Below are positions 9,563-20,338 of a stretch of 64,000 nt of DNA, piece by piece; within the stretch, counting starts at the first letter, position 1, and every line of letters begins with the position of its first letter. Both the position numbers and the translations under genes were made by a program. Under the pieces are notes generated by a model. The model was not told where the DNA came from. It saw only the letters and a list, made by a program, of their open reading frames with translations, and ran no database searches. The stretch is from positions 4,464-68,463 of IMG/VR virus record IMGVR_UViG_3300013104_000005. One strand, written 5' to 3'. Origin of the DNA: a virus.

Positions 9563-9628
9563 GTAGACTGGGGCCTATTCCCCATAGCGTGACTTGCGCC
9601 ACGCTCGCACGAGTTGAACGCCGTCCAC
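9563..9628 (-). ncRNA. putative structured multi-hairpin RNA element
   Basis: Closing stem GUGGAC/GUCUAC encloses a T-loop-like GCG-UUCAACU-CGU, a GCAA-capped AGCGUGGC/GUCACGCU hairpin and a GGGG/CCCC hairpin. Confidence 0.4.
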
Positions 9629-9713
9629 TACTGCCTACTACTGCCTACTACTGCCTACTACTGCCTACTACTGCCTACTACTGCCTACTACTGCCTACTA
9701 CTGCCTACTACTG
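9628..9713. repeat. perfect 10-bp tandem repeat (CTGCCTACTA) x8 plus partial flanks
   Basis: Directly visible at 9631-9710; intergenic. Confidence 0.97.
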
Positions 9714-11914: not shown

Positions 11915-12437
11915 TACCGCCCTCCCTACCCAAGCAGAAGATGCTGTTGATGAAGGCTTGACCGTAGTAAGCGACCGGATCTACCTTTTCGAGTGTGTTC
12001 TCGCAGAGGAAGGGGTCGACAACGAAGATGCCCTCGTACTCAAAACCGAGCATGTAGCTCGCTGCGCCTTCGGCCTCGAACTGTAGCTCCAGTTGCTTGT
12101 TGAGCTCAGCCAGTTGTTCGGCTTTCTCGCGCAACACCGTCGGCAGGTCGTTAAAGCAGATCGCTGGCTTTTCTAGCAGTAACACGGTCAGTCTCCTGTT
12201 GATGAGCTGCTCGAGCGCTCGAGCGATGATGGTGCCCTCACCTCCCCCAGTCAACAGGGAGTGAACCAGTCGATAGCCGAGTTTGCCGTCGGCCTTGACG
12301 TAAAAGTTACCGCTGGGCTTGAAGGTACCATCACCTTGCCGCACAGCAAACGCGCCTGAGTTGTAGACGCGGAGGGTGAGGATGTAGCCCTGGGGCGTGG
12401 TCACCTGATAGGTGCCCGGCGCCATGTGTGCTATCAT
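11907..12437 (-). CDS. hypothetical protein
   Basis: Packed ORF. Confidence 0.6.
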   Translation of the reverse strand: MIAHMAPGTYQVTTPQGYILTLRVYNSGAFAVRQGDGTFKPSGNFYVKADGKLGYRLVHSLLTGGGEGTIIARALEQLINRRLTVLLLEKPAICFNDLPTVLREKAEQLAELNKQLELQFEAEGAASYMLGFEYEGIFVVDPFLCENTLEKVDPVAYYGQAFINSIFCLGREGGNE

Positions 12438-12805
12438 AGCTTCATCTCCCTCACACACTTGCCACCGAGGCCAGATGAGGCGGTCTTGCCGCCCCTAAGC
12501 GTGCGGTTGCAGGCGTAGCAGCGCCCGGTCTCTTGGGCGTAGAGTTGTCCGGCGGACTGGGGGTGCTTCAGCAGGTCGATGACCATCACGTAGTCACGCT
12601 TGATGGTCTTGGACTTGAAGGGGATGATGTGACCCAGCCTGATGTAACAGACCGGCACCGTTTCACCTGTGTCCTCTGCGTAGCGGTCGATGGTCCACTC
12701 GGGATCTGCGTTCTTCCCAGGATCGTGGGCTCTGACCAGGAACAAGTGCTTGACCTGCTGATCGTCCCTCACTAGGTAACGACCTGAGATCAGCTTTCTC
12801 GACAT
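12434..12805 (-). CDS. DUF6011-like Zn-finger protein
   Basis: YAQETGRCYACNRTL..SSGLGGKC. Confidence 0.65.
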   Translation of the reverse strand: MSRKLISGRYLVRDDQQVKHLFLVRAHDPGKNADPEWTIDRYAEDTGETVPVCYIRLGHIIPFKSKTIKRDYVMVIDLLKHPQSAGQLYAQETGRCYACNRTLRGGKTASSGLGGKCVREMKL

Positions 12806-13000
12806 ACGGTAAACCTCGACTCGTAGTCTGCACTCTGCGCTCTCCGCCTATTCGGAGCGCCGGGCTTGTGACCGGCATCGCCGCATTAACTACCACAAAC
12901 TGGATGGTGGCGGCATCCTCGTACGCTGGCCAGCCGCGTTTCGGTACGCTCGCACGGATGCTCGTTGTCAACGCCTCCACCGCGTTACCACCCATGTCCA

Positions 13001-13333
13001 CTAGTTGAAGACGATCTGAAACTCGGGCTTCTCGAGCGTCGAGTCAACCTCAGTGCCTTCGATAAACACTACCACCTGCACATTAAGCTTAATGCGCAGT
13101 TGGTCGATGTTACTGTCGCTGCCTTCGGGTACCTCTGGGATAGCGTTGAGCATTTCCTCAGCGATGAGGTCGAAGAACGACGCACCTCGCGGGTTGTAAA
13201 TCCGCTTGGCCTCTTCTTCAGCTATCTGGAGAGATAGCTGGCCGGTGATGTCGTCTGGGATGAGCGGAAGTACCTGCTGGTCAAGGTTGTCTTCCTGAAA
13301 CTCCCAGTTTAGGTCATTGTCTACGATGCGCAC
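13001..13333 (-). CDS. acidic hypothetical protein
   Basis: GTG start with GGAGG SD. Confidence 0.6.
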   Translation of the reverse strand: MRIVDNDLNWEFQEDNLDQQVLPLIPDDITGQLSLQIAEEEAKRIYNPRGASFFDLIAEEMLNAIPEVPEGSDSNIDQLRIKLNVQVVVFIEGTEVDSTLEKPEFQIVFN

Positions 13334-13346
13334 TGTCGGTTCCTCC

Positions 13347-13715
13347 TTAGGTACCTGACTCTTCAGTAGGGATACAGATGACCCACTGAGGGTAGGTAGG
13401 ATTATTCACTCGAGTGATGGCCGCGGTGTGCAGCGGGTAATGGCGCACCACGTAGTTGACCGCTTCACTGAGGTTGCCAAAGTCTCGCTCGATGTGTGCT
13501 ATCGTGTTCACGTCCGCAAGCTTGTGGTCTTTGCCCGTCGCTGCGTTGTTGAGGACACGGCTCTTGGCTCCTAGCACCTGTTGTACCAGGGTCGAGCGCA
13601 CGTTGTCAAAGGTCGCGGTGATCTCGTGGCTCAGGATGATGCCGCTCTGACTAAACCTCATGGCTTGACCGCATGGCACTGATGCCAGTGACGCCGACAA
13701 GTCCGAGCTCGTCAA
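13347..13715 (-). CDS. hypothetical protein
   Basis: ORF; start uncertain, probably MRFSQ. Confidence 0.5.
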   Translation of the reverse strand: MTSSDLSASLASVPCGQAMRFSQSGIILSHEITATFDNVRSTLVQQVLGAKSRVLNNAATGKDHKLADVNTIAHIERDFGNLSEAVNYVVRHYPLHTAAITRVNNPTYPQWVICIPTEESGT

Positions 13716-14526
13716 GTGCTTGGTTAAGCAGCGGGCGAGATGCCTCGTCCTTGCAGTCTTGCTCGTCGTAGGAGTCTCGCATCGCCATGTACGCTACTGT
13801 CTGCGGGTGAGCCTTGCACCACTGCTGCATGGACTGCTGGGTAAGTGTAGGCTGCGAGAGCGACTTAAACCGCAGACTGTGGTAAAACGCCCACTGTACC
13901 AGGAGGTGTTGCTGTTCGGGGCCCGGCTCTAGCTGGTCGATGATCCGAGAGAAGGCCTCTACCGCTCGCTCGACGTACTCGTGACCCTTGACTGGGGGTA
14001 GCAGCTTGTAGAACGGCTGGTCGCGCCGGCACTCGAGGAACTCGTAAAGGATACCGTCGAGGTGCGCGCCTGTAAAGTCCGCTCCGTGCACGCAAGACCG
14101 GCTGATGTTGGCCCGCTCCAGGTGGGCGTAGGTGAAGTCAGTCTGCGTGAGGTCGGCGCCCGTAAACCGGGCTCCGCTTAACCAGGCGTAAGCGAAGTTA
14201 GCGTGGGTGAGGTCGGCCCTGTCGAAGTTGGCCAGGTTGGCATCTGCACCGTGAAAGATGGTGTTGTGGCAGGTGGCCCCTGACAGGTAGGCGCTGTTGA
14301 GGTGAGCCCCAGTAAACTGGGCGCCTGTGAGGTCAGCGCGCATGAGGTTGCCGTGTGCTAACTGACAGTTGGTCAGGTTCCGAAACGACAGGTCACGAGC
14401 GTGTAGGTCTACGCTGTGGAGGTCTATCACGAAGTCTGGCTCCGCGTCCCTCATGTCTTTCCAGCGATCTGCGTCGTGTAGCAGCACCTGTAGCAGGCTG
14501 CTACGGTCTAGCTGTGATAACTTCAC
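13651..14526 (-). CDS. pentapeptide-repeat protein
   Basis: A(D/N)LxGA-type repeats (ADLTGAQFTGAHLNSAYLSGA...); GTG start at 14526 with GAGGAG SD. Confidence 0.85.
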   Translation of the reverse strand: MKLSQLDRSSLLQVLLHDADRWKDMRDAEPDFVIDLHSVDLHARDLSFRNLTNCQLAHGNLMRADLTGAQFTGAHLNSAYLSGATCHNTIFHGADANLANFDRADLTHANFAYAWLSGARFTGADLTQTDFTYAHLERANISRSCVHGADFTGAHLDGILYEFLECRRDQPFYKLLPPVKGHEYVERAVEAFSRIIDQLEPGPEQQHLLVQWAFYHSLRFKSLSQPTLTQQSMQQWCKAHPQTVAYMAMRDSYDEQDCKDEASRPLLNQALDELGLVGVTGISAMRSSHEV

Positions 14527-14569
14527 GGTAACTCCTCGTGAGTCTCTAACTGCCACGTGATTGTGGCAT

Positions 14570-14616
14570 ACCGCCTGCCCGACTCGAACGGGCTGCCCAC
14601 TGACTGGGGAGGCAGT
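14570..14616 (-). ncRNA. minimal tRNA-like element (acceptor stem, one hairpin, T-arm)
   Basis: ACUGCCU/AGGCGGU 7-bp stem, CCCA-GUCAG-UGGG hairpin, GCCCG-UUCGAGU-CGGGC T-arm stacked directly on the acceptor strand. Confidence 0.6.
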
Positions 14617-14621
14617 GTCAC

Positions 14622-15119
14622 TTACCCGCCGGGGTGCTCGCAAGCGATGTTGATAGCGTGAGCGCCGGGTGTCGGGTCGTCCCAGCGGATCCTGGTGCCG
14701 CACTCGCGGCAAAGTTGGCACGACTGGCACACCCGCATCGGAACCAGTCCACGAGGGCCCATCGACACAAGCGCCTCGCTTAGTAGGTTACCTGGTAGGG
14801 GAAGCGTACCGCACAACTCGCACCATTCGTACGCGACCTTCCAGACTGGAGCGATGACAAAACCTGTGTGAATACGACGACCGGTGTCCTCAAACAGGCC
14901 AGATGCCAGCGCAGCGTAGGCGAGTGGAATGTTCTCCATCCAGACCTTAGCAAAGAACTCACCCGGCCACAGCGTGTGGGCCTGGTCAGGGATGTTGACG
15001 GAGAGGGTAGCAAGTGGCTCGTGCTCGGTATTCTCTAACTTCACCGCTAAGTTGCTGTCAGGGTACTTAGTGATGACGACCCTAACAACGCCGTCAGGCG
15101 TGTTAAACCTTGCTCTCAT
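14622..15119 (-). CDS. DUF4313-like protein with Cys-rich C-terminus
   Basis: YPDSNLAVKL..EPLATLSVNIP..FAKVWMEN..TGRRIHTGFVIAPV; three CxxC pairs. Confidence 0.6.
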   Translation of the reverse strand: MRARFNTPDGVVRVVITKYPDSNLAVKLENTEHEPLATLSVNIPDQAHTLWPGEFFAKVWMENIPLAYAALASGLFEDTGRRIHTGFVIAPVWKVAYEWCELCGTLPLPGNLLSEALVSMGPRGLVPMRVCQSCQLCRECGTRIRWDDPTPGAHAINIACEHPGG

Positions 15120-15153
15120 AGTTACCTCTAACGTATGGAGTGTGTAGAGTGTC

Positions 15154-15210
15154 TGCTCTCGTCAGTGGCCGCTTTACGACCAGACCGTGGCTACGCCACG
15201 GTTTCGGCAT
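15154..15210 (-). ncRNA. hammerhead ribozyme (type II, stem II open)
   Basis: UGCC-GAAA-CCGUGGC(GUA)GCCACGG-UC/UGGUCG(UAAAG)CGGCCA-CUGACGA-GAGCA. All core nucleotides present; predicted GUC cleavage between 15183 and 15182. Confidence 0.88.
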
Positions 15211-15440
15211 GGGTAGTAGGTAGCAAGAGGCCCAAGGTACTCTTGTTAGGTTGTAACCCAGGGCCTCTTACCTGAGAGATCGGATTGTCCGTAGTTTGCC
15301 ATCCCTCGTGGCTTCGGGACTACCGCGTGACTCATAAAGCTTGTTGCTACTAAGCTCGTCGTTCTCAAGCCAGAGGCGGTAATCACCCGAAACTAAGCGT
15401 AGGATAACCTACGCCCTGGCGGGTACCTTGTGAGTTGGCG

Positions 15441-15584
15441 TTAGCGCCTGTTGTACGCCTGATAACCGCGCCTCACGCACCCGCCGCAGTGTCGTTGAGG
15501 GACAGTCCTGCCGCGCCGCCGCACGCGTCGCCAGCCGACGACACGCCGACCACACTTAACGCACTTAAACCTGAGCGTGTTCAA
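15441..15584 (-). CDS. 47-aa Arg-rich Zn-finger microprotein
   Basis: Manual translation MNTLRFKCVKCGRRVVGWRRVRRRGRTVPQRHCGGCVRRGYQAYNRR; the TTG start overlaps the upstream TGA; GGAGG SD. Confidence 0.6.
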   Translation of the reverse strand: MNTLRFKCVKCGRRVVGWRRVRRRGRTVPQRHCGGCVRRGYQAYNRR

Positions 15585-15895
15585 TGTCGGCTTACCTCCA
15601 GGATGAGCGACTTCAGGTCGTCGATGGTCGGTTCCTCGTCGGGGTTAACCACTGCGATGGATCGGTCACGGTAGTCAGTAGCGATGGGACGGTCTAACAC
15701 CAGGTAGGTGCCTACAGCGAGGGCCTCCTCAGGTGCCAGGTCGTGGAAGTTGAAGACACCCAGGAAGGACTTGACCTTAGCGGGTGGTGCCTCGTGAGTA
15801 ACGAGCAAGATGATGGGGTCTCGGACTGGCCAGTTAAAGCCGTCGGTGCCCTGGTAGCTAAACGACCCCGAGACCGTGAGCAAGTGTTTAAGCAC
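15581..15895 (-). CDS. hypothetical protein
   Basis: Packed ORF. Confidence 0.6.
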   Translation of the reverse strand: MLKHLLTVSGSFSYQGTDGFNWPVRDPIILLVTHEAPPAKVKSFLGVFNFHDLAPEEALAVGTYLVLDRPIATDYRDRSIAVVNPDEEPTIDDLKSLILEVSRH

Positions 15896-16304
15896 GCTTC
15901 GCCATCTTGTCTAGCAACAGGTCGATGTCGTTGCAGAGCGTTACGCTGAAGTCGAAGAGGCGGGTGAGGACCACGACGTTAAGTCGGTCGTGTGGGGTAG
16001 TCACCGTGAACCCGTTCTGCATGATGGCACCTAAGGCGCCCATGAGGTGGACCGCGAAGTGACTCACGCCCACTCGCTTGATGTCATCGGCGAGGTCGGC
16101 CACAGCCTGGTCGCAGGCGAGGTCGTCTTCAGTGGTCTCGTTGAGGTCACCGATGTCCTGGGCAGTGTGGGCTCGGGTGAGGATGTCGTCAAGCATCTGC
16201 TTGAGGCTTGGGTTGTTGTCACGGGTCCGGAAAGCGTATTCGAACAACTCGTTAACCGTGACCTGACTGGTCTCCTTCGGCACATCTTCCTTCCTTCGGC
16301 TCAT
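15888..16304 (-). CDS. hypothetical protein
   Basis: Start MSRRKE; ATGA overlap with the upstream gene. Confidence 0.6.
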   Translation of the reverse strand: MSRRKEDVPKETSQVTVNELFEYAFRTRDNNPSLKQMLDDILTRAHTAQDIGDLNETTEDDLACDQAVADLADDIKRVGVSHFAVHLMGALGAIMQNGFTVTTPHDRLNVVVLTRLFDFSVTLCNDIDLLLDKMAKRA

Positions 16305-16909
16305 CGGCGCACCCTCTCTATCACTCGACACTCGATGCCGCAACCGGCCAAAGACCCGACCGCTGTCAACAATACCTGCGTATCACTGTACTCGCGGACG
16401 GAGCTGAAGAACTGGCTCCTCGGCTTCACCTGCAGAACCACCACGCGCCCGAACTTCAGGCTGAACGTGGGCGACGCGTGATTGACCAGTCGGTAACCGG
16501 CGGGGATGCTATCCGGTGCCGGCGCCTTCACCTTGGGCTGTGGACGAGGTCTAAGGTCATCTCGTCGCGGCAACTTCGATTCCTCCAGGTGCTTGTTGTC
16601 ATTCTGGTGACCCGGACCCAGGGGGCAAGGTCGGCCCTGATGGAACTTCTCGTAACGCCGATACGCTCGCTGGTTGACATCTGCCTTTTGACCGCCATCC
16701 TGGCAATTCGGCAGAGGCTCCAGCTCGTTCAGCTCGTCAACCCGTCGGAGGCGGAAGATCTTCCCCCGCCAGATCCGGTGAGTCTTCGGTAACGGGTGCC
16801 CCTGGGCGATATACGCCTCGAAGTCGGGGTCGCCCTTGCTCGGCGCCGGGTCAGGCTTGAACATCACCTCCGTGTCGCCGTGCATGAGCTTCGGATTGAA
16901 CCTGCTCAT
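16301..16909 (-). CDS. basic hypothetical protein
   Basis: 202-aa ORF with GGAG SD, directly after the twister ribozyme. Confidence 0.65.
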   Translation of the reverse strand: MSRFNPKLMHGDTEVMFKPDPAPSKGDPDFEAYIAQGHPLPKTHRIWRGKIFRLRRVDELNELEPLPNCQDGGQKADVNQRAYRRYEKFHQGRPCPLGPGHQNDNKHLEESKLPRRDDLRPRPQPKVKAPAPDSIPAGYRLVNHASPTFSLKFGRVVVLQVKPRSQFFSSVREYSDTQVLLTAVGSLAGCGIECRVIERVRR

Positions 16910-16928
16910 TGATACACTCCATGTAGGT

Positions 16929-17000
16929 AGTGATCTACTCTGCTCTCCCCCTCGGTCGGGGGCGCCGGACTTGTAACCGGCATTGTAGCATTAGATCACT
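16929..17000 (-). ncRNA. twister ribozyme (type P1, with P5 hairpin)
   Basis: AGUGAUC-UAA-UGCU-ACAAU-GCCGG-UUACAAGU-CCGGC-[CCCC/GGGG hairpin]-AGCA-GAGUA-GAUCACU. P1, P2, P4 and both pseudoknots (UAC/GUA, AC/GU) can form; predicted U/A cleavage at 16993/16992. Confidence 0.9.
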
Positions 17001-17030
17001 GGGCAGGGGGAGGTGAATTCCCCCTGCCCT
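17001..17030 (-). other. strong hairpin GGGCAGGGGG/CCCCCUGCCC between an ORF stop and the twister
   Basis: Inverted repeat with no U-tract; could protect the 3' end of the upstream cleavage product. Confidence 0.6.
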
Positions 17031-17037
17031 GTTCTTG

Positions 17038-17793
17038 TTAGATTGTAACTGCGTCGGGGACCTCCGTTGCCTCGACGACCGGTTCTGCCAGCGGCTCCAT
17101 CACCGGCGGCAACTCGTCGACCACCGGCGTCGTGGGCTCAGTCGGGTCAGGGGTGATAGGACTCACCGTGTCAGGGGCGTTGGCGGTGAATGCCTTCACC
17201 TGGTTGGCGGTATTCCGTGCCCAGATGAGGCAGAGCTCACGCGCACGCTCTTGCTTCTTGGTGATCTGGGGACGCCCTCCGGGGCTCGGCATACATACCT
17301 GCGTGGGCAGATGCATGGCTCGGAAATACCCGGGCTTGTCTGGGGTCGTGATAACCGCATAGTGACCGTTGACGCGCTCTACGATCATGTCCTCGGTAAA
17401 ATCCGTCACCGGCGGTGGCGTCTGTGCTGTGTAATTCTGACCAGCCTTCGGCGTCTTCGGCGCCTTCGGCTCTCCAGTCGCCGTCGACGCGTGGGGCTTC
17501 CGCAACTTCAACTTCAACTGGCTGAGCTGCTGGGCGGCATCTGCCATCGTCATGCCTGTCGTGTCGATCCGGTCAATCTTGAGTGCGTCGCAGAGCTGCT
17601 CGATTGCCATCAACTGGGATGCCGCTGCCGGCGCGTGGTTGATGGGTGGCAGGGGCTCCTGCGGTGGGGCGGTCGCCTCCGTGGGAGCAGGCTCCGCAAC
17701 CGGCTCCTGTACTTCCGGCTCAACCGGCTCGGCCGGCTGCGTCGGGGTGGTTGGGGCAGACCCGTGCCCGTTGTTGCGGTTCTTCTTAGCCAT
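17038..17793 (-). CDS. Pro/Ala/Glu-rich hypothetical early protein
   Basis: Start MAKKNRNN with GGAG SD. Confidence 0.7.
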   Translation of the reverse strand: MAKKNRNNGHGSAPTTPTQPAEPVEPEVQEPVAEPAPTEATAPPQEPLPPINHAPAAASQLMAIEQLCDALKIDRIDTTGMTMADAAQQLSQLKLKLRKPHASTATGEPKAPKTPKAGQNYTAQTPPPVTDFTEDMIVERVNGHYAVITTPDKPGYFRAMHLPTQVCMPSPGGRPQITKKQERARELCLIWARNTANQVKAFTANAPDTVSPITPDPTEPTTPVVDELPPVMEPLAEPVVEATEVPDAVTI

Positions 17794-17799
17794 CGTGTA

Positions 17800-18486
17800 T
17801 CTCCAACCTGTAAAGGTTTGGGCTCCTCTCCACGTGCCCGCAGCTATTCGCGGTTCCAGACTTGAGACTGGCATGGTAGTGTTAAAGCGCCGCAGATATT
17901 GCTTCCCCTCATTAGAAGAGGGAATCTTCCGCGGCGACGGTCATCACCGGTCAACGACGTACTCGGTAGAGCTGTGATGCCGAGCTCGACCCGTCAGATC
18001 GAAACAATCACTCGAGGTCAATGTCGTTGGGGCAACCCATCAGTTATCAGTCACCTGTCGCCGTCGATCGTTACTTCCTCACCACTGCCAGTCGGATATT
18101 AGTTGGTCATCTGCTGGTCGTTGGACTCCGGTTTAGGCGTCGACCCGTTGGACATGTCGTAGGGCTCGAGGCGTAAGGTAAGTCAGCGGGCTTTGATTTT
18201 CCCACTGAGCCTTGTCGCCTGTCGCGGCCCAAACAACGGTTTGGTTTCAGGCTCTGTCGCGGTGCCAGGGTGGGCCATGAGGCTCTTGGGCACCGTCCTT
18301 ATTCCCTTGTTAACGGTTTTCGGTCATCTTCCGCACAAGCACGGCACTGAGGACCAGTCGGGTCGTTATATCCCCGGAGAGAACCACGGTCATCGCGGAT
18401 CTGGCTCCCTCAAACTGAGATGATGACACAACAGCCCCCATAGGGGGAAACACTAGAACCCTGTTCTGTGTATCATTTATCATCAT
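17800..18486 (-). ncRNA. putative large structured ncRNA or 5' leader with many YGAC motifs
   Basis: Follows a TTGACA/TACAAT promoter; no credible minus-strand ORF; many hairpins; 21 YGAC motifs counted on the transcribed strand in 17940-18393. Confidence 0.55.
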
Positions 18487-18489
18487 TCT

Positions 18490-18519
18490 ATTGTATCACA
18501 CTTATCCCCAGTTTGTCAA
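18490..18519 (-). promoter_or_regulatory. sigma70-type promoter TTGACA-18-TACAAT with extended -10
   Basis: tgtcaa 18514-18519, attgta 18490-18495; ATGATGATAA at the expected start site. Confidence 0.75.
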
Positions 18520-20276: not shown

Positions 20277-20338
20277 ATTGTATGCCATTCCATTCCGGTT
20301 GTCAATATTATTTAATATTTATTATATCAATAAAGGAA
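20277..20338 (-). promoter_or_regulatory. sigma70 promoter TTGACA-17-TACAAT with AT-rich UP element
   Basis: Duplicate of the promoter at 19553-19614. Confidence 0.85.

What the first reader, a model, noticed from the sequence alone, without database searches (positions are those of the whole stretch)
14551..17030. Early operon cut into modules by a twister, a hammerhead and a tRNA-like element
Seen: three consecutive sizeable intergenic gaps on the minus strand each hold a different RNA element in the sense direction. They are the twister (16929-17000), the hammerhead (15154-15210) and a mini tRNA-like fold (14570-14616), each ending 20-45 nt before the next start codon. Known: twister and hammerhead cleavage leaves 5'-OH and 2',3'-cyclic phosphate ends, which are the RtcB substrate ends, and 5'-OH ends resist 5'-monophosphate-stimulated decay. 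Inference: the phage pre-programmes processing of this mRNA. The ~1.8-kb piece 16992-15183 (four unknown ORFs plus a structured 3' tail) would carry 5'-OH and cyclic-phosphate ends, so it could be stabilised or circularised as a natural ribozyme-flanked mRNA cassette.
Basis: partly seen in the sequence, partly recalled or inferred. Interest (0 to 1): 0.85.

Follow-up and report, generated by a model that had tools for sequence, protein, structure and literature searches.

The report
Ribozyme-punctuated early operon of a phage
A soil phage's long early message carries three twister ribozymes, one hammerhead ribozyme and a tRNA-like fold, each just ahead of a gene start, so the message is probably cut into separate pieces; phages are already known to do this, and this is a rich new example.

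Summary
Confirmed and extended. The window is a complete 68-kb tailed-phage genome. A minus-strand unit starts at a sigma-70-like promoter (18519-18490). It carries three type-P1 twisters (17888-17822, 17000-16929, 12893-12823), one type II hammerhead (15209-15154) and a 47-nt tRNA-like minihelix (14616-14570). Each ends 17-43 nt before a Shine-Dalgarno/start codon.

None reaches Rfam's gathering score. Even so, per-genome E-values are 3e-5 to 3e-4 for the twisters and 6e-7 for the hammerhead, and the catalytic cores are intact. The three twisters co-vary in every helix, including both pseudoknots. Their low scores come from a rare architecture (no P3, closed P5).

In two metatranscriptome studies, RNA contigs stop 11-20 nt downstream of the three twister cut sites and of the tRNA-like element's 3' end, while DNA contigs run through. 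This is a weak but consistent hint of cleavage in nature.

The tRNA-like element is the weakest part. Circularisation has no support: the phage has no RtcB or Rnl2-type RNA ligase match (two Pfam families searched) and no junction was seen. Ribozyme arrays flanking genes in phage transcripts have been described since 2011. This is therefore a new, unusually rich member of a known kind, in an orphan phage with no retrievable relatives.

The parts
18490..18519 (-). Sigma-70-like promoter TTGACA-18 nt-TACAAT with TG before the second hexamer. It follows a terminator-like hairpin plus T run at 18610-18583. This is the likely start of the unit (about 18483).
   Evidence: 11 of 12 hexamer matches. 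Four more sites with the same two hexamers lie on the same strand.
17885..18483 (-). Leader of about 600 nt with no ORF over 41 aa inside it. It would be cut off by the first twister.
   Evidence: Highest RNA contig depth of the stretch, in bin 17939-18100. Fold z -1.5.
17822..17888 (-). Twister Tc, type P1, no P3, closed P5. U^A cut between 17884 and 17883. 28 nt lie between its end and ATG 17793.
   Evidence: RF03160 23.7 bits, E 3.4e-4 per genome. Alignment. Covariation. Own model 77.4 bits. RNA contigs of X5 and X6 both stop at 17872, while DNA contig 17621-18008 bridges.
17038..17793 (-). Module 1 gene, 251 aa, Pro/Ala-rich, weak phrog_6032 match.
17001..17029 (-). Strong hairpin (12 pairs, 9 G-C) directly upstream of twister Tb. 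Probably a 3'-end protector of module 1, or a partial terminator.
   Evidence: RNA contigs resume only at 17048/17049.
16929..17000 (-). Cut between 16993 and 16992. 19 nt lie between its end and ATG 16909.
   Evidence: Own model 90.9 bits. RNA contigs of X5 and X6 both stop at 16973, while DNA contig 16286-17341 bridges.
15441..16909 (-). Module 2: four overlapping ORFs (202, 138, 104, 47 aa) with no family match.
15210..15440 (-). Structured non-coding tail of module 2.
   Evidence: Fold -87.9 kcal/mol, z -4.24, 0 of 200 shuffles as stable. No Rfam match at E up to 10.
15154..15209 (-). Type II hammerhead. Core CUGACGA, GAAA, GUC. Stem III 7-8 bp, stem I 6 bp, stem II 4 bp with one bulged A. 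Cut between 15183 and 15182. 34 nt lie between its end and ATG 15119.
   Evidence: RF02276 34.9 bits against a gathering score of 37. Stems I and III are in the minimum-free-energy fold. No loop I / tail pseudoknot found.
14622..15119 (-). Module 3 gene, 165 aa, Cys-rich C-terminus, no family.
14570..14616 (-). tRNA-like minihelix: acceptor 7 bp, short hairpin, T arm 5 bp with loop UUCGAGU. An alternative 80-nt reading runs 14648-14569. 43 nt lie between its end and GTG 14526.
   Evidence: The 3' 25 nt are identical to the 3' end of a tRNA-His(GTG) in one MAG. RNA contigs stop at 14550 (X5) and 14557 (X6), while DNA contig 14504-14752 bridges.
13001..14526 (-). Module 4: pentapeptide-repeat protein (291 aa) and two ORFs (122 and 110 aa).
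12823..12893 (-). Twister Ta, type P1, no P3, closed P5. Cut between 12888 and 12887. 17 nt lie between its end and ATG 12805.
   Evidence: RF03160 27.4 bits, E 2.9e-5 per genome. Alignment. Covariation. Own model 85.2 bits. RNA contigs stop at 12874 (X5) and 12867 (X6), while DNA contig 12713-13004 bridges.
12434..12805 (-). First gene of module 5, 123 aa, with a DUF6011-like C-terminus (23.1 bits, below the cut-off of 26.6).

Best explanation
A host-RNA-polymerase transcript starts near 18483 and runs leftward for at least 7 kb. It is cut, probably while still being made, at four self-cleaving ribozymes (twisters at 17884/17883, 16993/16992 and 12888/12887; type II hammerhead at 15183/15182). 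It is possibly also cut by host tRNA-processing enzymes at a tRNA-His-like minihelix (14616-14570).

Every cutter sits 17-43 nt upstream of a Shine-Dalgarno/start codon. Each downstream block therefore begins with a 5'-OH, a short fixed leader and a folded cap: the twister body, or hammerhead stem I flush at the end. Each upstream block ends in a 2',3'-cyclic phosphate behind a hairpin (17029-17001, hammerhead stem III, or the structured tail).

The expected result is five or six independent mRNA modules. Their stability and translation no longer depend on neighbouring sequence, as with the ribozyme insulators used in synthetic biology.

Shown here: the elements, their cores, the covariation, their position relative to starts, and the lack of internal promoters of the phage's own type.
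Hinted here: breaks in natural RNA at the predicted places.
Inferred: self-cleavage itself, co-transcription, and the consequences for stability and translation.
For: Rfam matches:
- Three full-length twister-P1 matches, all on the minus strand, with E 2.9e-5, 8.6e-5 and 3.4e-4 per genome.
- Hammerhead_II with E 6.2e-7 per genome.
- These are the four best of the 6 matches at E up to 5 in the whole window.

Twister structure:
- On the three twisters, 91.7% of 72 cells are paired.
- 12 of 24 pairs have changes on both sides; 0 of 500 shuffles reach this.
- Slid controls give 31-46% paired.
- Both pseudoknots are 100% paired with compensatory changes.
- Across the 17 rows with letters at the core columns (3 own, 14 others), out of 26 distinct rows: P4 68/68, T1 49/51, T2 31/33 and P2 62/68 paired, with A8, A9, U31, G32, U37, A41, A42 and A112 invariant.
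- The low Rfam scores are explained by architecture: no P3, closed P5. P3 occurs in 78% and P5 in 1% of twisters (PMC6154101, passages).
- In the 12 of 28 IMG/VR loci that were scanned, no type-P1 twister reached the twister-P1 gathering score either, although my model matches them full length.

Hammerhead: the core is fully consensus, and stems I and III are in the minimum-free-energy fold.

Transcription unit: promoter at 18519-18490 with a terminator-like site just before it, and no promoter with the same hexamers until 11055.

Natural RNA:
- RNA contigs of two studies stop at 17872/17872, 16973/16973, 14550/14557 and 12874/12867. That is 11-20 nt downstream of the predicted 5' ends.
- They resume 38-73 nt upstream of the twister Ta and Tb cuts.
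- DNA contigs bridge all four places.
- Contig depth steps between modules: 16-22 for 17048-17872 against 5-8 for 16447-16973.

Other phages show the same layout:
- Twister or hammerhead directly before the ribosome-binding site and start, in unrelated IMG/VR contigs.
- Mixed twister plus hammerhead arrays (L006).
- tRNAs followed by a twister (L011, L020).

Precedent: prophage hammerhead arrays flank genes and cleave in vitro and in vivo (PMC3088659, passages).
Against: - No element reaches a gathering score.
- At E up to 10 the same two models also match in 10 and 11 of 14 control genomes, none over the cut-off.
- No relative of this phage could be retrieved. Covariation therefore rests on three paralogues in one genome plus 14 unrelated viral twisters.
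- Hammerhead stem II is only 4 bp with a bulge. The loop I / 3'-tail pseudoknot that most type II hammerheads have was not found.
- Twister Tc has a U-C mismatch in P2 and a 4-bp P1.
- The tRNA-like fold is not more stable than shuffles: z -0.81, with 36 of 200 shuffles folding as well. Neither ARAGORN nor Rfam calls it.
- Contigs cannot show RNA ends.
- 27 contig pieces were not listed.
- The hammerhead site has no informative contig.
- X5 has a loose end at 12877.
- Strongly folded RNA may simply be under-represented in RNA-seq.
- The tool itself rates such coincident stops as a weak hint.
- The hairpin at 17029-17001 could be a partial terminator, which would also explain the depth step.
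- A 5'-OH end can destabilise RNA in hosts with RNase J.
Confidence: 0.7

Rival explanations
1. One reading: the 1810-nt piece 16992-15183 has a 5'-OH and a 2',3'-cyclic phosphate, and host RtcB joins its ends into a circular mRNA.
For: Both flanking ribozymes are credible. Their products have the end chemistry that RtcB ligates. This is established knowledge; the RtcB papers were seen only in the reference list shown.
Against: The searches for RtcB (PF01139) and the Rnl2-type RNA ligase family (PF09414) found no match in the phage. Nothing brings the two ends together: after cleavage the 5' end is buried in the twister fold and the 3' end sits flush on hammerhead stem III. The same end chemistry arises at every module, so nothing singles out this piece. 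Known prophage ribozyme arrays are read as linear processing.
Confidence: 0.03
2. The ribozymes are real and cut, but the cutting is neutral baggage. They would be mobile or duplicated elements that persist in intergenic gaps without tuning expression.
For: The biological role of bacterial and phage twisters and hammerheads is still undetermined (review PMC6765202, passages). Ta and Tb are similar enough to be recent duplicates (78% mean column identity over the three copies).
Against: All five elements are in the sense orientation and stop 17-43 nt before a start. The same placement recurs in unrelated phages. Protective hairpins sit just upstream of the cuts. Compensatory changes keep all helices intact.
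Confidence: 0.12
3. The modules are separate transcription units with unrecognised promoters and terminators. The breaks and depth steps in the RNA contigs would then reflect transcription rather than cleavage, and the ribozyme look-alikes would be inactive.
For: The hairpin at 17029-17001 is terminator-like. The promoter scan covers only the sigma-70 consensus. Contigs cannot show ends or strand. No element passes Rfam's gathering score.
Against: No promoter of the phage's own TTGACA/TACAAT type lies between 18490 and 11055. Gaps between element ends and starts are only 17-43 nt. The E-values and the covariation, pseudoknots included, are far beyond chance.
Confidence: 0.07
4. For the tRNA-like element only: it is a decayed tRNA-His gene remnant or a chance fold with no processing role.
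For: Its fold is not unusually stable (z -0.81). ARAGORN finds nothing at default settings and only a poor 80-nt tRNA at a lowered threshold. Rfam finds nothing at E up to 10. Its 3' 25 nt equal a tRNA-His 3' end in one MAG, while the rest has diverged, as in a pseudogene. Only 1 of 301 sampled genomes of that class has this 25-mer within 2 mismatches.
Against: It is the only T-arm-on-acceptor site in the genome, against 0.05 expected per shuffled genome. It lies in the sense strand in a 95-nt gap, at the same distance from a start as the ribozymes. Acceptor-plus-T-arm hairpins are RNase P substrates (review PMC11143913, passage). RNA contigs of two studies stop 13-20 nt past its 3' end while DNA runs through. 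It is not an attP site: no tyrosine or serine recombinase was found.
Confidence: 0.5

Closest known systems
Multiple hammerhead ribozymes flanking genes in prophage polycistronic RNAs (Perreault et al. 2011, PMC3088659; passages read)
   Same: Several self-cleaving ribozymes lie in one orientation between genes or short gene blocks of a phage transcript. The proposal is processing into gene-length mRNAs. Type II hammerheads with short stem II are common there.
   Different: The array here is mixed (three twisters, one hammerhead, one tRNA-like fold). It lies in a free, complete, integrase-less phage genome. The hammerhead lacks the usual loop I / tail pseudoknot. Cleavage here is not tested at the bench.
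Twister ribozyme class, type P1 (Rfam RF03160, clan CL00120; review PMC6154101, passages)
   Same: P1-P2-P4 order, U-A cleavage dinucleotide, both pseudoknots T1 and T2, and the conserved loop nucleotides.
   Different: All three copies lack P3 (present in 78% of twisters) and carry a closed P5 (present in 1%). They therefore score 24-27 bits against a gathering score of 67.2.
Association of twister, hammerhead and other self-cleaving ribozymes with each other and with phage genes (review PMC6765202, passages)
   Same: Different ribozyme classes occur close together near phage genes. Processing of polycistronic transcripts has been suggested, but the function is still open.
   Different: Here there is a full map of one unit with promoter, five cutters, start-codon spacing and environmental RNA contigs.
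RNase P model substrates and tRNA punctuation (acceptor stem + T arm hairpins; review PMC11143913, passage; mitochondrial tRNA punctuation is recalled, from no call)
   Same: A 7-bp acceptor stem stacked on a 5-bp T stem with a canonical T loop lies between two cistrons.
   Different: It is not a decoding tRNA, and no cleavage is shown. Real tRNAs precede twisters in other phage contigs (L011, L020).
Synthetic ribozyme insulators placed between promoter and ribosome-binding site (RiboJ type; recalled, from no call)
   Same: A self-cleaving ribozyme directly upstream of the ribosome-binding site leaves a fixed, folded 5' leader with a 5'-OH.
   Different: The case here is natural, repeated along one operon, and uses twisters and a type II hammerhead.

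Membership tests
Twister ribozyme (type P1) | Helices P1, P2 and P4 in type-P1 order | tested here: met
   P2 91.7%, P4 100% and P1 77.8% of cells paired in the three copies, with changes on both sides in each helix. P1 of Ta is shifted by 2 nt in the alignment.
Twister ribozyme (type P1) | Double pseudoknot: T1 (P4 loop with the 3' internal loop) and T2 (P4 loop with the loop after P2) | tested here: met
   both 100% paired. T1 reads CAC/GUG, UAC/GUA and CUC/GAG. T2 reads GC/GC and AC/GU. T1 49/51 and T2 31/33 over 17 rows.
Twister ribozyme (type P1) | Conserved nucleotides, including the U-A cleavage dinucleotide | tested here: met
   UAA, AUG before P4, U and AA in the P4 loop, and GA before T1 are present in all three copies.
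Twister ribozyme (type P1) | Rfam gathering score | tested here: not met
   27.4, 25.8 and 23.7 bits against 67.2. The Twister-P5 reading of Tb scores 27.1 against 37.6. The cause is a missing P3 and an extra P5. Independent viral type-P1 twisters also miss it.
Twister ribozyme (type P1) | Self-cleavage | not testable with these tools
   Only indirect evidence: RNA contig stops 11-20 nt from the predicted 5' ends.
Hammerhead ribozyme, type II | Catalytic core CUGANGA, GAAA, and U-H before the cut | tested here: met
   alignment and sequence: CUGACGA, GAAA, GUC, plus the A15.1-U16.1 and G10.1-C11.1 pairs.
Hammerhead ribozyme, type II | Stems I and III closed by loops, stem II open | tested here: met
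   Stem II is 4 bp with one bulged A.
Hammerhead ribozyme, type II | Rfam gathering score | tested here: not met
   34.9 bits against 37.
Hammerhead ribozyme, type II | Pseudoknot between loop I and the tail after stem II (found in most type II hammerheads, not obligatory) | tested here: not met
   the best complement is 4 bp, 18 nt downstream of stem II. The L006 hammerhead shows the usual one.
Hammerhead ribozyme, type II | Self-cleavage | not testable with these tools
   No informative contig at this site.
tRNA / tRNA-like RNase P substrate | Cloverleaf recognised by tRNA finders | tested here: not met
   ARAGORN finds 0 genes. It finds only a tRNA at 80% of its threshold. No RF00005 match at E up to 10.
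tRNA / tRNA-like RNase P substrate | 7-bp acceptor stem stacked on a 5-bp T stem with a UUCRANY loop | tested here: met
   The 3' 25 nt are identical to a tRNA-His 3' end.
tRNA / tRNA-like RNase P substrate | Cleavage by RNase P / 3' processing | not testable with these tools
   Hint only: RNA contigs stop at 14550 and 14557.
Ribozyme arrays processing phage polycistronic RNA | Two or more self-cleaving ribozymes, same strand, flanking genes | tested here: met
   Four ribozymes between 17888 and 12823.
Ribozyme arrays processing phage polycistronic RNA | One primary transcript across them | tested here: inconclusive
   One promoter at 18519-18490 and none of its type until 11055. RNA is present in two metatranscriptomes. 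No end or strand data.
Ribozyme-flanked circular RNA | Ligase provided and a head-to-tail junction | tested here: inconclusive
   No match to RtcB (PF01139) or the Rnl2-type RNA ligase family (PF09414) in the phage. No joint in the contigs, which cannot show absence.

The most novel reading that the evidence does not exclude
The 1810-nt module 16992-15183 (or any other module bounded by two cutters) is joined end to end by a host RtcB-type ligase into a circular, translatable phage mRNA. A less extreme novel reading, with probability about 0.3, is that twister, hammerhead and a mini tRNA-His cut by RNase P/Z serve as interchangeable punctuation marks at the same position before ribosome-binding sites.
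Probability: 0.03. Interest if true: 0.85.

Novelty: new member of a known kind. Interest (0 to 1): 0.45.

Why it matters
The biological role of bacterial and phage twisters and hammerheads is still open. This genome offers a compact test case. It has one promoter, four ribozymes of two classes and a tRNA-like fold, all at the same distance from ribosome-binding sites, with protective hairpins on the upstream side. Environmental RNA already breaks at the predicted places.

If the modules do differ in stability, this would be direct evidence that phages use self-cleaving RNAs as natural operon insulators. The result also shows that Rfam's twister-P1 threshold misses P3-less, P5-bearing phage twisters. 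Such arrays are therefore probably under-counted in viral metagenomes.

Tried and rejected
- megablast against phages: none.
- The search for related loci in IMG/VR with the 165-aa, 202-aa, capsid and helicase proteins: none.
- The search for related loci in metagenome contigs with the 165-aa protein: none.
- tblastn against phages with the 202-aa, 123-aa and 251-aa proteins: none. The capsid's best hit is 37% identical.
- The 123-aa protein found only itself in the protein collection.
- A metagenome scan for the P5-type twister pattern gave 0 hits.
- The 28 IMG/VR loci that share the twister core are unrelated phages: no blastn or tblastn hit.

Twister-P5 reading of Tb: rejected. It would use the upstream hairpin strand in place of the T1 partner and would lose the UAC/GUA pairing that the type-P1 reading keeps.

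attP reading of the tRNA-like element: rejected. No tyrosine or serine recombinase was found.

Host tRNA mimicry:
- The 23-mer occurs in 2 of the GTDB species genomes scanned. One is a tRNA-His and the other is not a tRNA.
- The 25-mer occurs in 1 of 301 sampled genomes of that class within 2 mismatches.
- No host can be named from this.
- Neither contig is related to the phage.

RNA contig data:
- No joints were seen in the RNA contigs. This is not evidence against circles.
- There was no cover of 14551-15286 in X5 and no listed contig over the hammerhead. No conclusion can be drawn.
- The five variant sites in the runs all lie outside the elements, so they say nothing about covariation.
- The 17-letter loose end at 12877 in X5 is not phage sequence.

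Further copies or other ribozyme classes: none in the window at E up to 5, in the first 4.7 kb of the genome, or with my own twister model.

ARAGORN in mitochondrial mode gave 13 calls in the genome. I treated these as noise.

The leader 18483-17885 is not unusually folded (z -1.5).

Supplementary files of the papers were not opened; the gene-context tables of the 2011 hammerhead paper may hold closer precedents.

Full report
WHAT THE WINDOW IS. The window is bases 4464-68463 of a 68,463-bp virus record with direct terminal repeats, rated complete. It encodes an HK97-type capsid, portal, prohead protease and terminase on the plus strand. An SNF2 helicase and a PD-(D/E)XK nuclease lie on the minus strand. 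Minus-strand genes run from about 23766 down to 2281. Runs that hold it are labelled soil and rhizosphere metagenomes. No host can be named.

THE OBSERVATION. At gathering thresholds Rfam finds nothing in the window, and ARAGORN finds no tRNA. With E-value thresholds, the 3-kb region gives exactly two matches, both on the minus strand:
- Hammerhead_II at 15209-15147: 34.9 bits against a gathering score of 37, E 1.1e-4.
- A twister at 17028-16965 in the Twister-P5 reading: 27.1 bits, E 0.0069.

It also gives two more, at 12892-12827 (27.4 bits, 2.9e-5) and 17888-17822 (23.7 bits, 3.4e-4), all on the minus strand. The hammerhead has E 6.2e-7 per genome. As a caveat, at E up to 10 both models also match in 10 and 11 of 14 control genomes, none above the cut-off.

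Reading the sequence against the cmscan alignments places the cuts as follows:
- Tc: 17884/17883.
- Tb: 16993/16992.
- Hammerhead: 15183/15182.
- Ta: 12888/12887.

ARE THE TWISTERS REAL? The low bit scores have a structural cause. The twister-P1 model expects stem P3 and has no P5, whereas all three copies lack P3 and carry a closed hairpin after P4. A review states that P3 is present in 78% and P5 in 1% of twisters (PMC6154101, passages).

I aligned the three copies and counted pairs for P1, P2, P4, P5 and both pseudoknots:
- 91.7% of 72 cells are paired.
- 12 of 24 pairs carry changes on both sides, a value no shuffle out of 500 reaches.
- Slid controls give 31-46% paired.
- T1 reads CAC/GUG, UAC/GUA and CUC/GAG in the three copies.
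- T2 reads GC/GC or AC/GU.

A covariance model built from the three copies finds no fourth copy in the window or in the first 4.7 kb of the genome. It does match twisters in unrelated IMG/VR contigs over their full length, with E from 4e-13. Of 26 distinct aligned rows, 17 had letters at the core columns (3 own, 14 others). In those rows P4 is paired in 68/68 cells, T1 in 49/51, T2 in 31/33 and P2 in 62/68. A8, A9, U31, G32, U37, A41, A42 and A112 are invariant. I scanned 12 of the 28 loci at gathering level, and none of their type-P1 twisters reached the twister-P1 cut-off either. Missing that cut-off is therefore weak evidence against a phage twister.

The Twister-P5 reading of Tb is rejected because it would lose the T1 pairing.

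THE HAMMERHEAD. The core is fully consensus: CUGACGA, GAAA, GUC. Stems III (7-8 bp) and I (6 bp) are in the minimum-free-energy fold. Stem II is 4 bp with a bulged A. Perreault et al. report that stem II is often as short as 2 bp. The loop I / 3'-tail pseudoknot that most type II hammerheads have was not found, so the cleavage rate is uncertain.

THE tRNA-LIKE ELEMENT. The region 14616-14570 folds as a 7-bp acceptor stem, a short hairpin and a 5-bp T stem with the loop UUCGAGU. A descriptor for a T arm stacked on a 7-bp acceptor finds only this site in the genome. It allows two alternative 5' strands, at 14616 or at 14648. Shuffled genomes give 0.05 zero-mismatch sites on average, and 4% of shuffles have one or more.

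The fold energy is ordinary: z -0.81, with 36 of 200 shuffles as stable. Tools for tRNAs do not call it.

Its T arm, 3' acceptor strand and next base (25 nt) are identical to the 3' end of a tRNA-His(GTG) in one Rhodobacteraceae MAG. Within 2 mismatches, this 25-mer is found in only 1 of 301 sampled genomes of that class. The element looks tRNA-derived, but it is not a copy of a common host tRNA. It is not an attP site, because the phage has no tyrosine or serine recombinase.

Acceptor-plus-T-arm hairpins are classical RNase P substrates (PMC11143913, passage). I put the chance that it is a working processing site at about one half.

THE UNIT. A sigma-70-like promoter lies at 18519-18490: TTGACA, 18 nt, TG, TACAAT. 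It follows a terminator-like hairpin with a T run at 18610-18583. The same two hexamers recur on the minus strand at 20305, 19581, 11055 and 4274. None lies between 18490 and 11055. The five elements are therefore most simply read as parts of one transcript.

The transcript begins with an ORF-poor leader of about 600 nt. The spaces between each element's end and the next start are:
- Tc to ATG 17793: 28 nt.
- Tb to ATG 16909: 19 nt.
- Hammerhead to ATG 15119: 34 nt.
- tRNA-like element to GTG 14526: 43 nt.
- Ta to ATG 12805: 17 nt.

Each start has a GGAG- or GAGG-type Shine-Dalgarno sequence. A 12-pair hairpin (17029-17001) sits directly before Tb, and a 231-nt tail with z -4.24 sits before the hammerhead. 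After cleavage, hammerhead stem III would lie flush at the 3' end of the upstream piece. Stem I would lie flush at the 5' end of the downstream piece.

NATURAL RNA. Two metatranscriptome runs from different studies hold 76% of the sampled words of 12400-18100. Only contigs could be laid, and contigs cannot show ends or strand.

The listed RNA contigs of X5 and X6 stop at these places:
- 17872 and 17872 (cut at 17883).
- 16973 and 16973 (cut at 16992).
- 14550 and 14557 (3' end of the tRNA-like element at 14570).
- 12874 and 12867 (cut at 12887).

They resume at 17048/17049 and at 12961/12926, upstream of the hairpins. DNA contigs run across all four places: 17621-18008, 16286-17341, 14504-14752 and 12713-13004. 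No loose end is listed at 17872, 16973, 17048/9 or 14550/7, but one is listed at 12877 in X5.

Contig depth differs by module:
- 17048-17872: 16.2 in X5; 21.7 and 18.7 in X6.
- 16447-16973: 7.6 in X5; 5.1 in X6.
- 12926-13946: 8.7 in X5; 14.3 in X6.
- Below 12874: 3.0 in X5; 3.7 in X6.

The tool rates coincident RNA stops with DNA read-through as a weak hint. Twenty-seven pieces were not listed, and the hammerhead site is uninformative. Folded RNA may be under-sampled whatever its ends. I take this as consistent with cutting, not as proof.

COMPARISON WITH WHAT IS KNOWN. Perreault et al. 2011 reported multiple hammerheads flanking genes in prophages. They proposed processing of long phage transcripts and showed cleavage in vitro and in E. 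coli. Later work found twisters through their shared gene neighbourhood with hammerheads. A 2019 review still calls the role undetermined.

In my own sample of unrelated IMG/VR contigs the same layout recurs.
- Twister to start: a script that required a Shine-Dalgarno-like motif and an ORF of at least 60 codons found a start 8-27 nt after the twister in 6 of 14 independent rows. It found a start at 73-94 nt in 2 rows and none in 6 rows. In three of those six (L006, L017, L012:4068) a start after a purine-rich motif is visible in the printed sequence.
- L006 has a type II hammerhead (43.6 bits) on the same strand as its twister.
- L012 has several twisters within 1.3 kb.
- L011 and L020 have real tRNAs 37 nt upstream of a twister.

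The finding is thus a new member of a known kind. What it adds is the number and mix of cutters in one mapped unit, the rare P5 architecture, a possible tRNA-derived fifth cutter, and environmental RNA that fits.

Pre-programmed processing is the best reading (confidence about 0.7). Stabilisation by a 5'-OH end depends on the host: the 5'-OH product of glmS is a substrate of RNase J1 (PMC3328962, passage). Here the 5' ends are buried in a fold, which could protect them either way. Circularisation has no support. Searches for RtcB (PF01139) and the Rnl2-type RNA ligase family (PF09414) found no match in the phage. No junction was seen, and nothing distinguishes this module from the others. I put it at about 0.03.

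LIMITS. Supplements of the cited papers were not opened. Statements on RiboJ-type insulators, mitochondrial tRNA punctuation and RtcB substrate chemistry are recalled knowledge.

Noticed in passing
window 9627-9713: A perfect 10-nt tandem repeat, 8.7 copies (unit ACTACTGCCT on the plus strand), lies in a minus-strand intergenic gap. It may be iterons or a protein-binding array.
   Followed up: partly
window 20305-20277, 19581-19553, 18519-18490, 11055-11026, 4274-4246 (minus strand): Five promoter-like sites share identical hexamers TTGACA and TACAAT. The three upstream ones share AT-rich flanks. Terminator-like hairpins with T runs lie at 19835-19810 and 18610-18583. Together they look like a set of short early units followed by one long unit.
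   Followed up: partly
window 18483-17885 (minus strand): A leader of about 600 nt without a credible ORF lies between the promoter and the first twister. Its 17939-18100 part has the highest RNA contig depth of the stretch (19.3 and 48.7). It is not unusually folded (z -1.5). It may be a released non-coding RNA.
   Followed up: partly
window 15440-15210 (minus strand): A 231-nt non-coding tail has a very stable fold (z -4.24, 0 of 200 shuffles as stable) and no Rfam match. It ends in a long hairpin just before the hammerhead.
   Followed up: partly
window 17038-17793 and 12434-12805 (minus strand): The two genes that follow twisters Tc and Ta both match phrog_6032, in complementary parts of the profile (positions 75-166 and 155-274 of 296). 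The 123-aa protein also has a DUF6011-like C-terminus below the cut-off.
   Followed up: no
L012 2772-4126; L006 530-3919; L011 4482-4854; L020 3151-4005: Unrelated IMG/VR contigs carry arrays on one strand. L012 has several twisters within 1.3 kb. L006 has a twister plus a type II hammerhead. L011 and L020 have two or three tRNAs, then a twister, then a ribosome-binding site.
   Followed up: partly
L006, L007, L010, L011, L020, L023, L025-L028: Well-formed type-P1 viral twisters match my model full length but are not reported by Rfam at the twister-P1 gathering score of 67.2. The curated threshold seems to miss many phage twisters.
   Followed up: partly
L034 2489-2565; L035 6832-6854: The 23-mer of the phage's T arm plus 3' acceptor strand occurs in a tRNA-His(GTG) of a Rhodobacteraceae MAG. 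It also occurs, outside any tRNA, in an Acidobacteriota MAG contig.
   Followed up: partly
window 13651-14526 (minus strand): The 291-aa protein downstream of the tRNA-like element is a pentapeptide-repeat protein. That fold often mimics DNA, and in Agrobacterium a hammerhead array flanks the anti-restriction gene ardA. An early anti-defence role is a guess.
   Followed up: no
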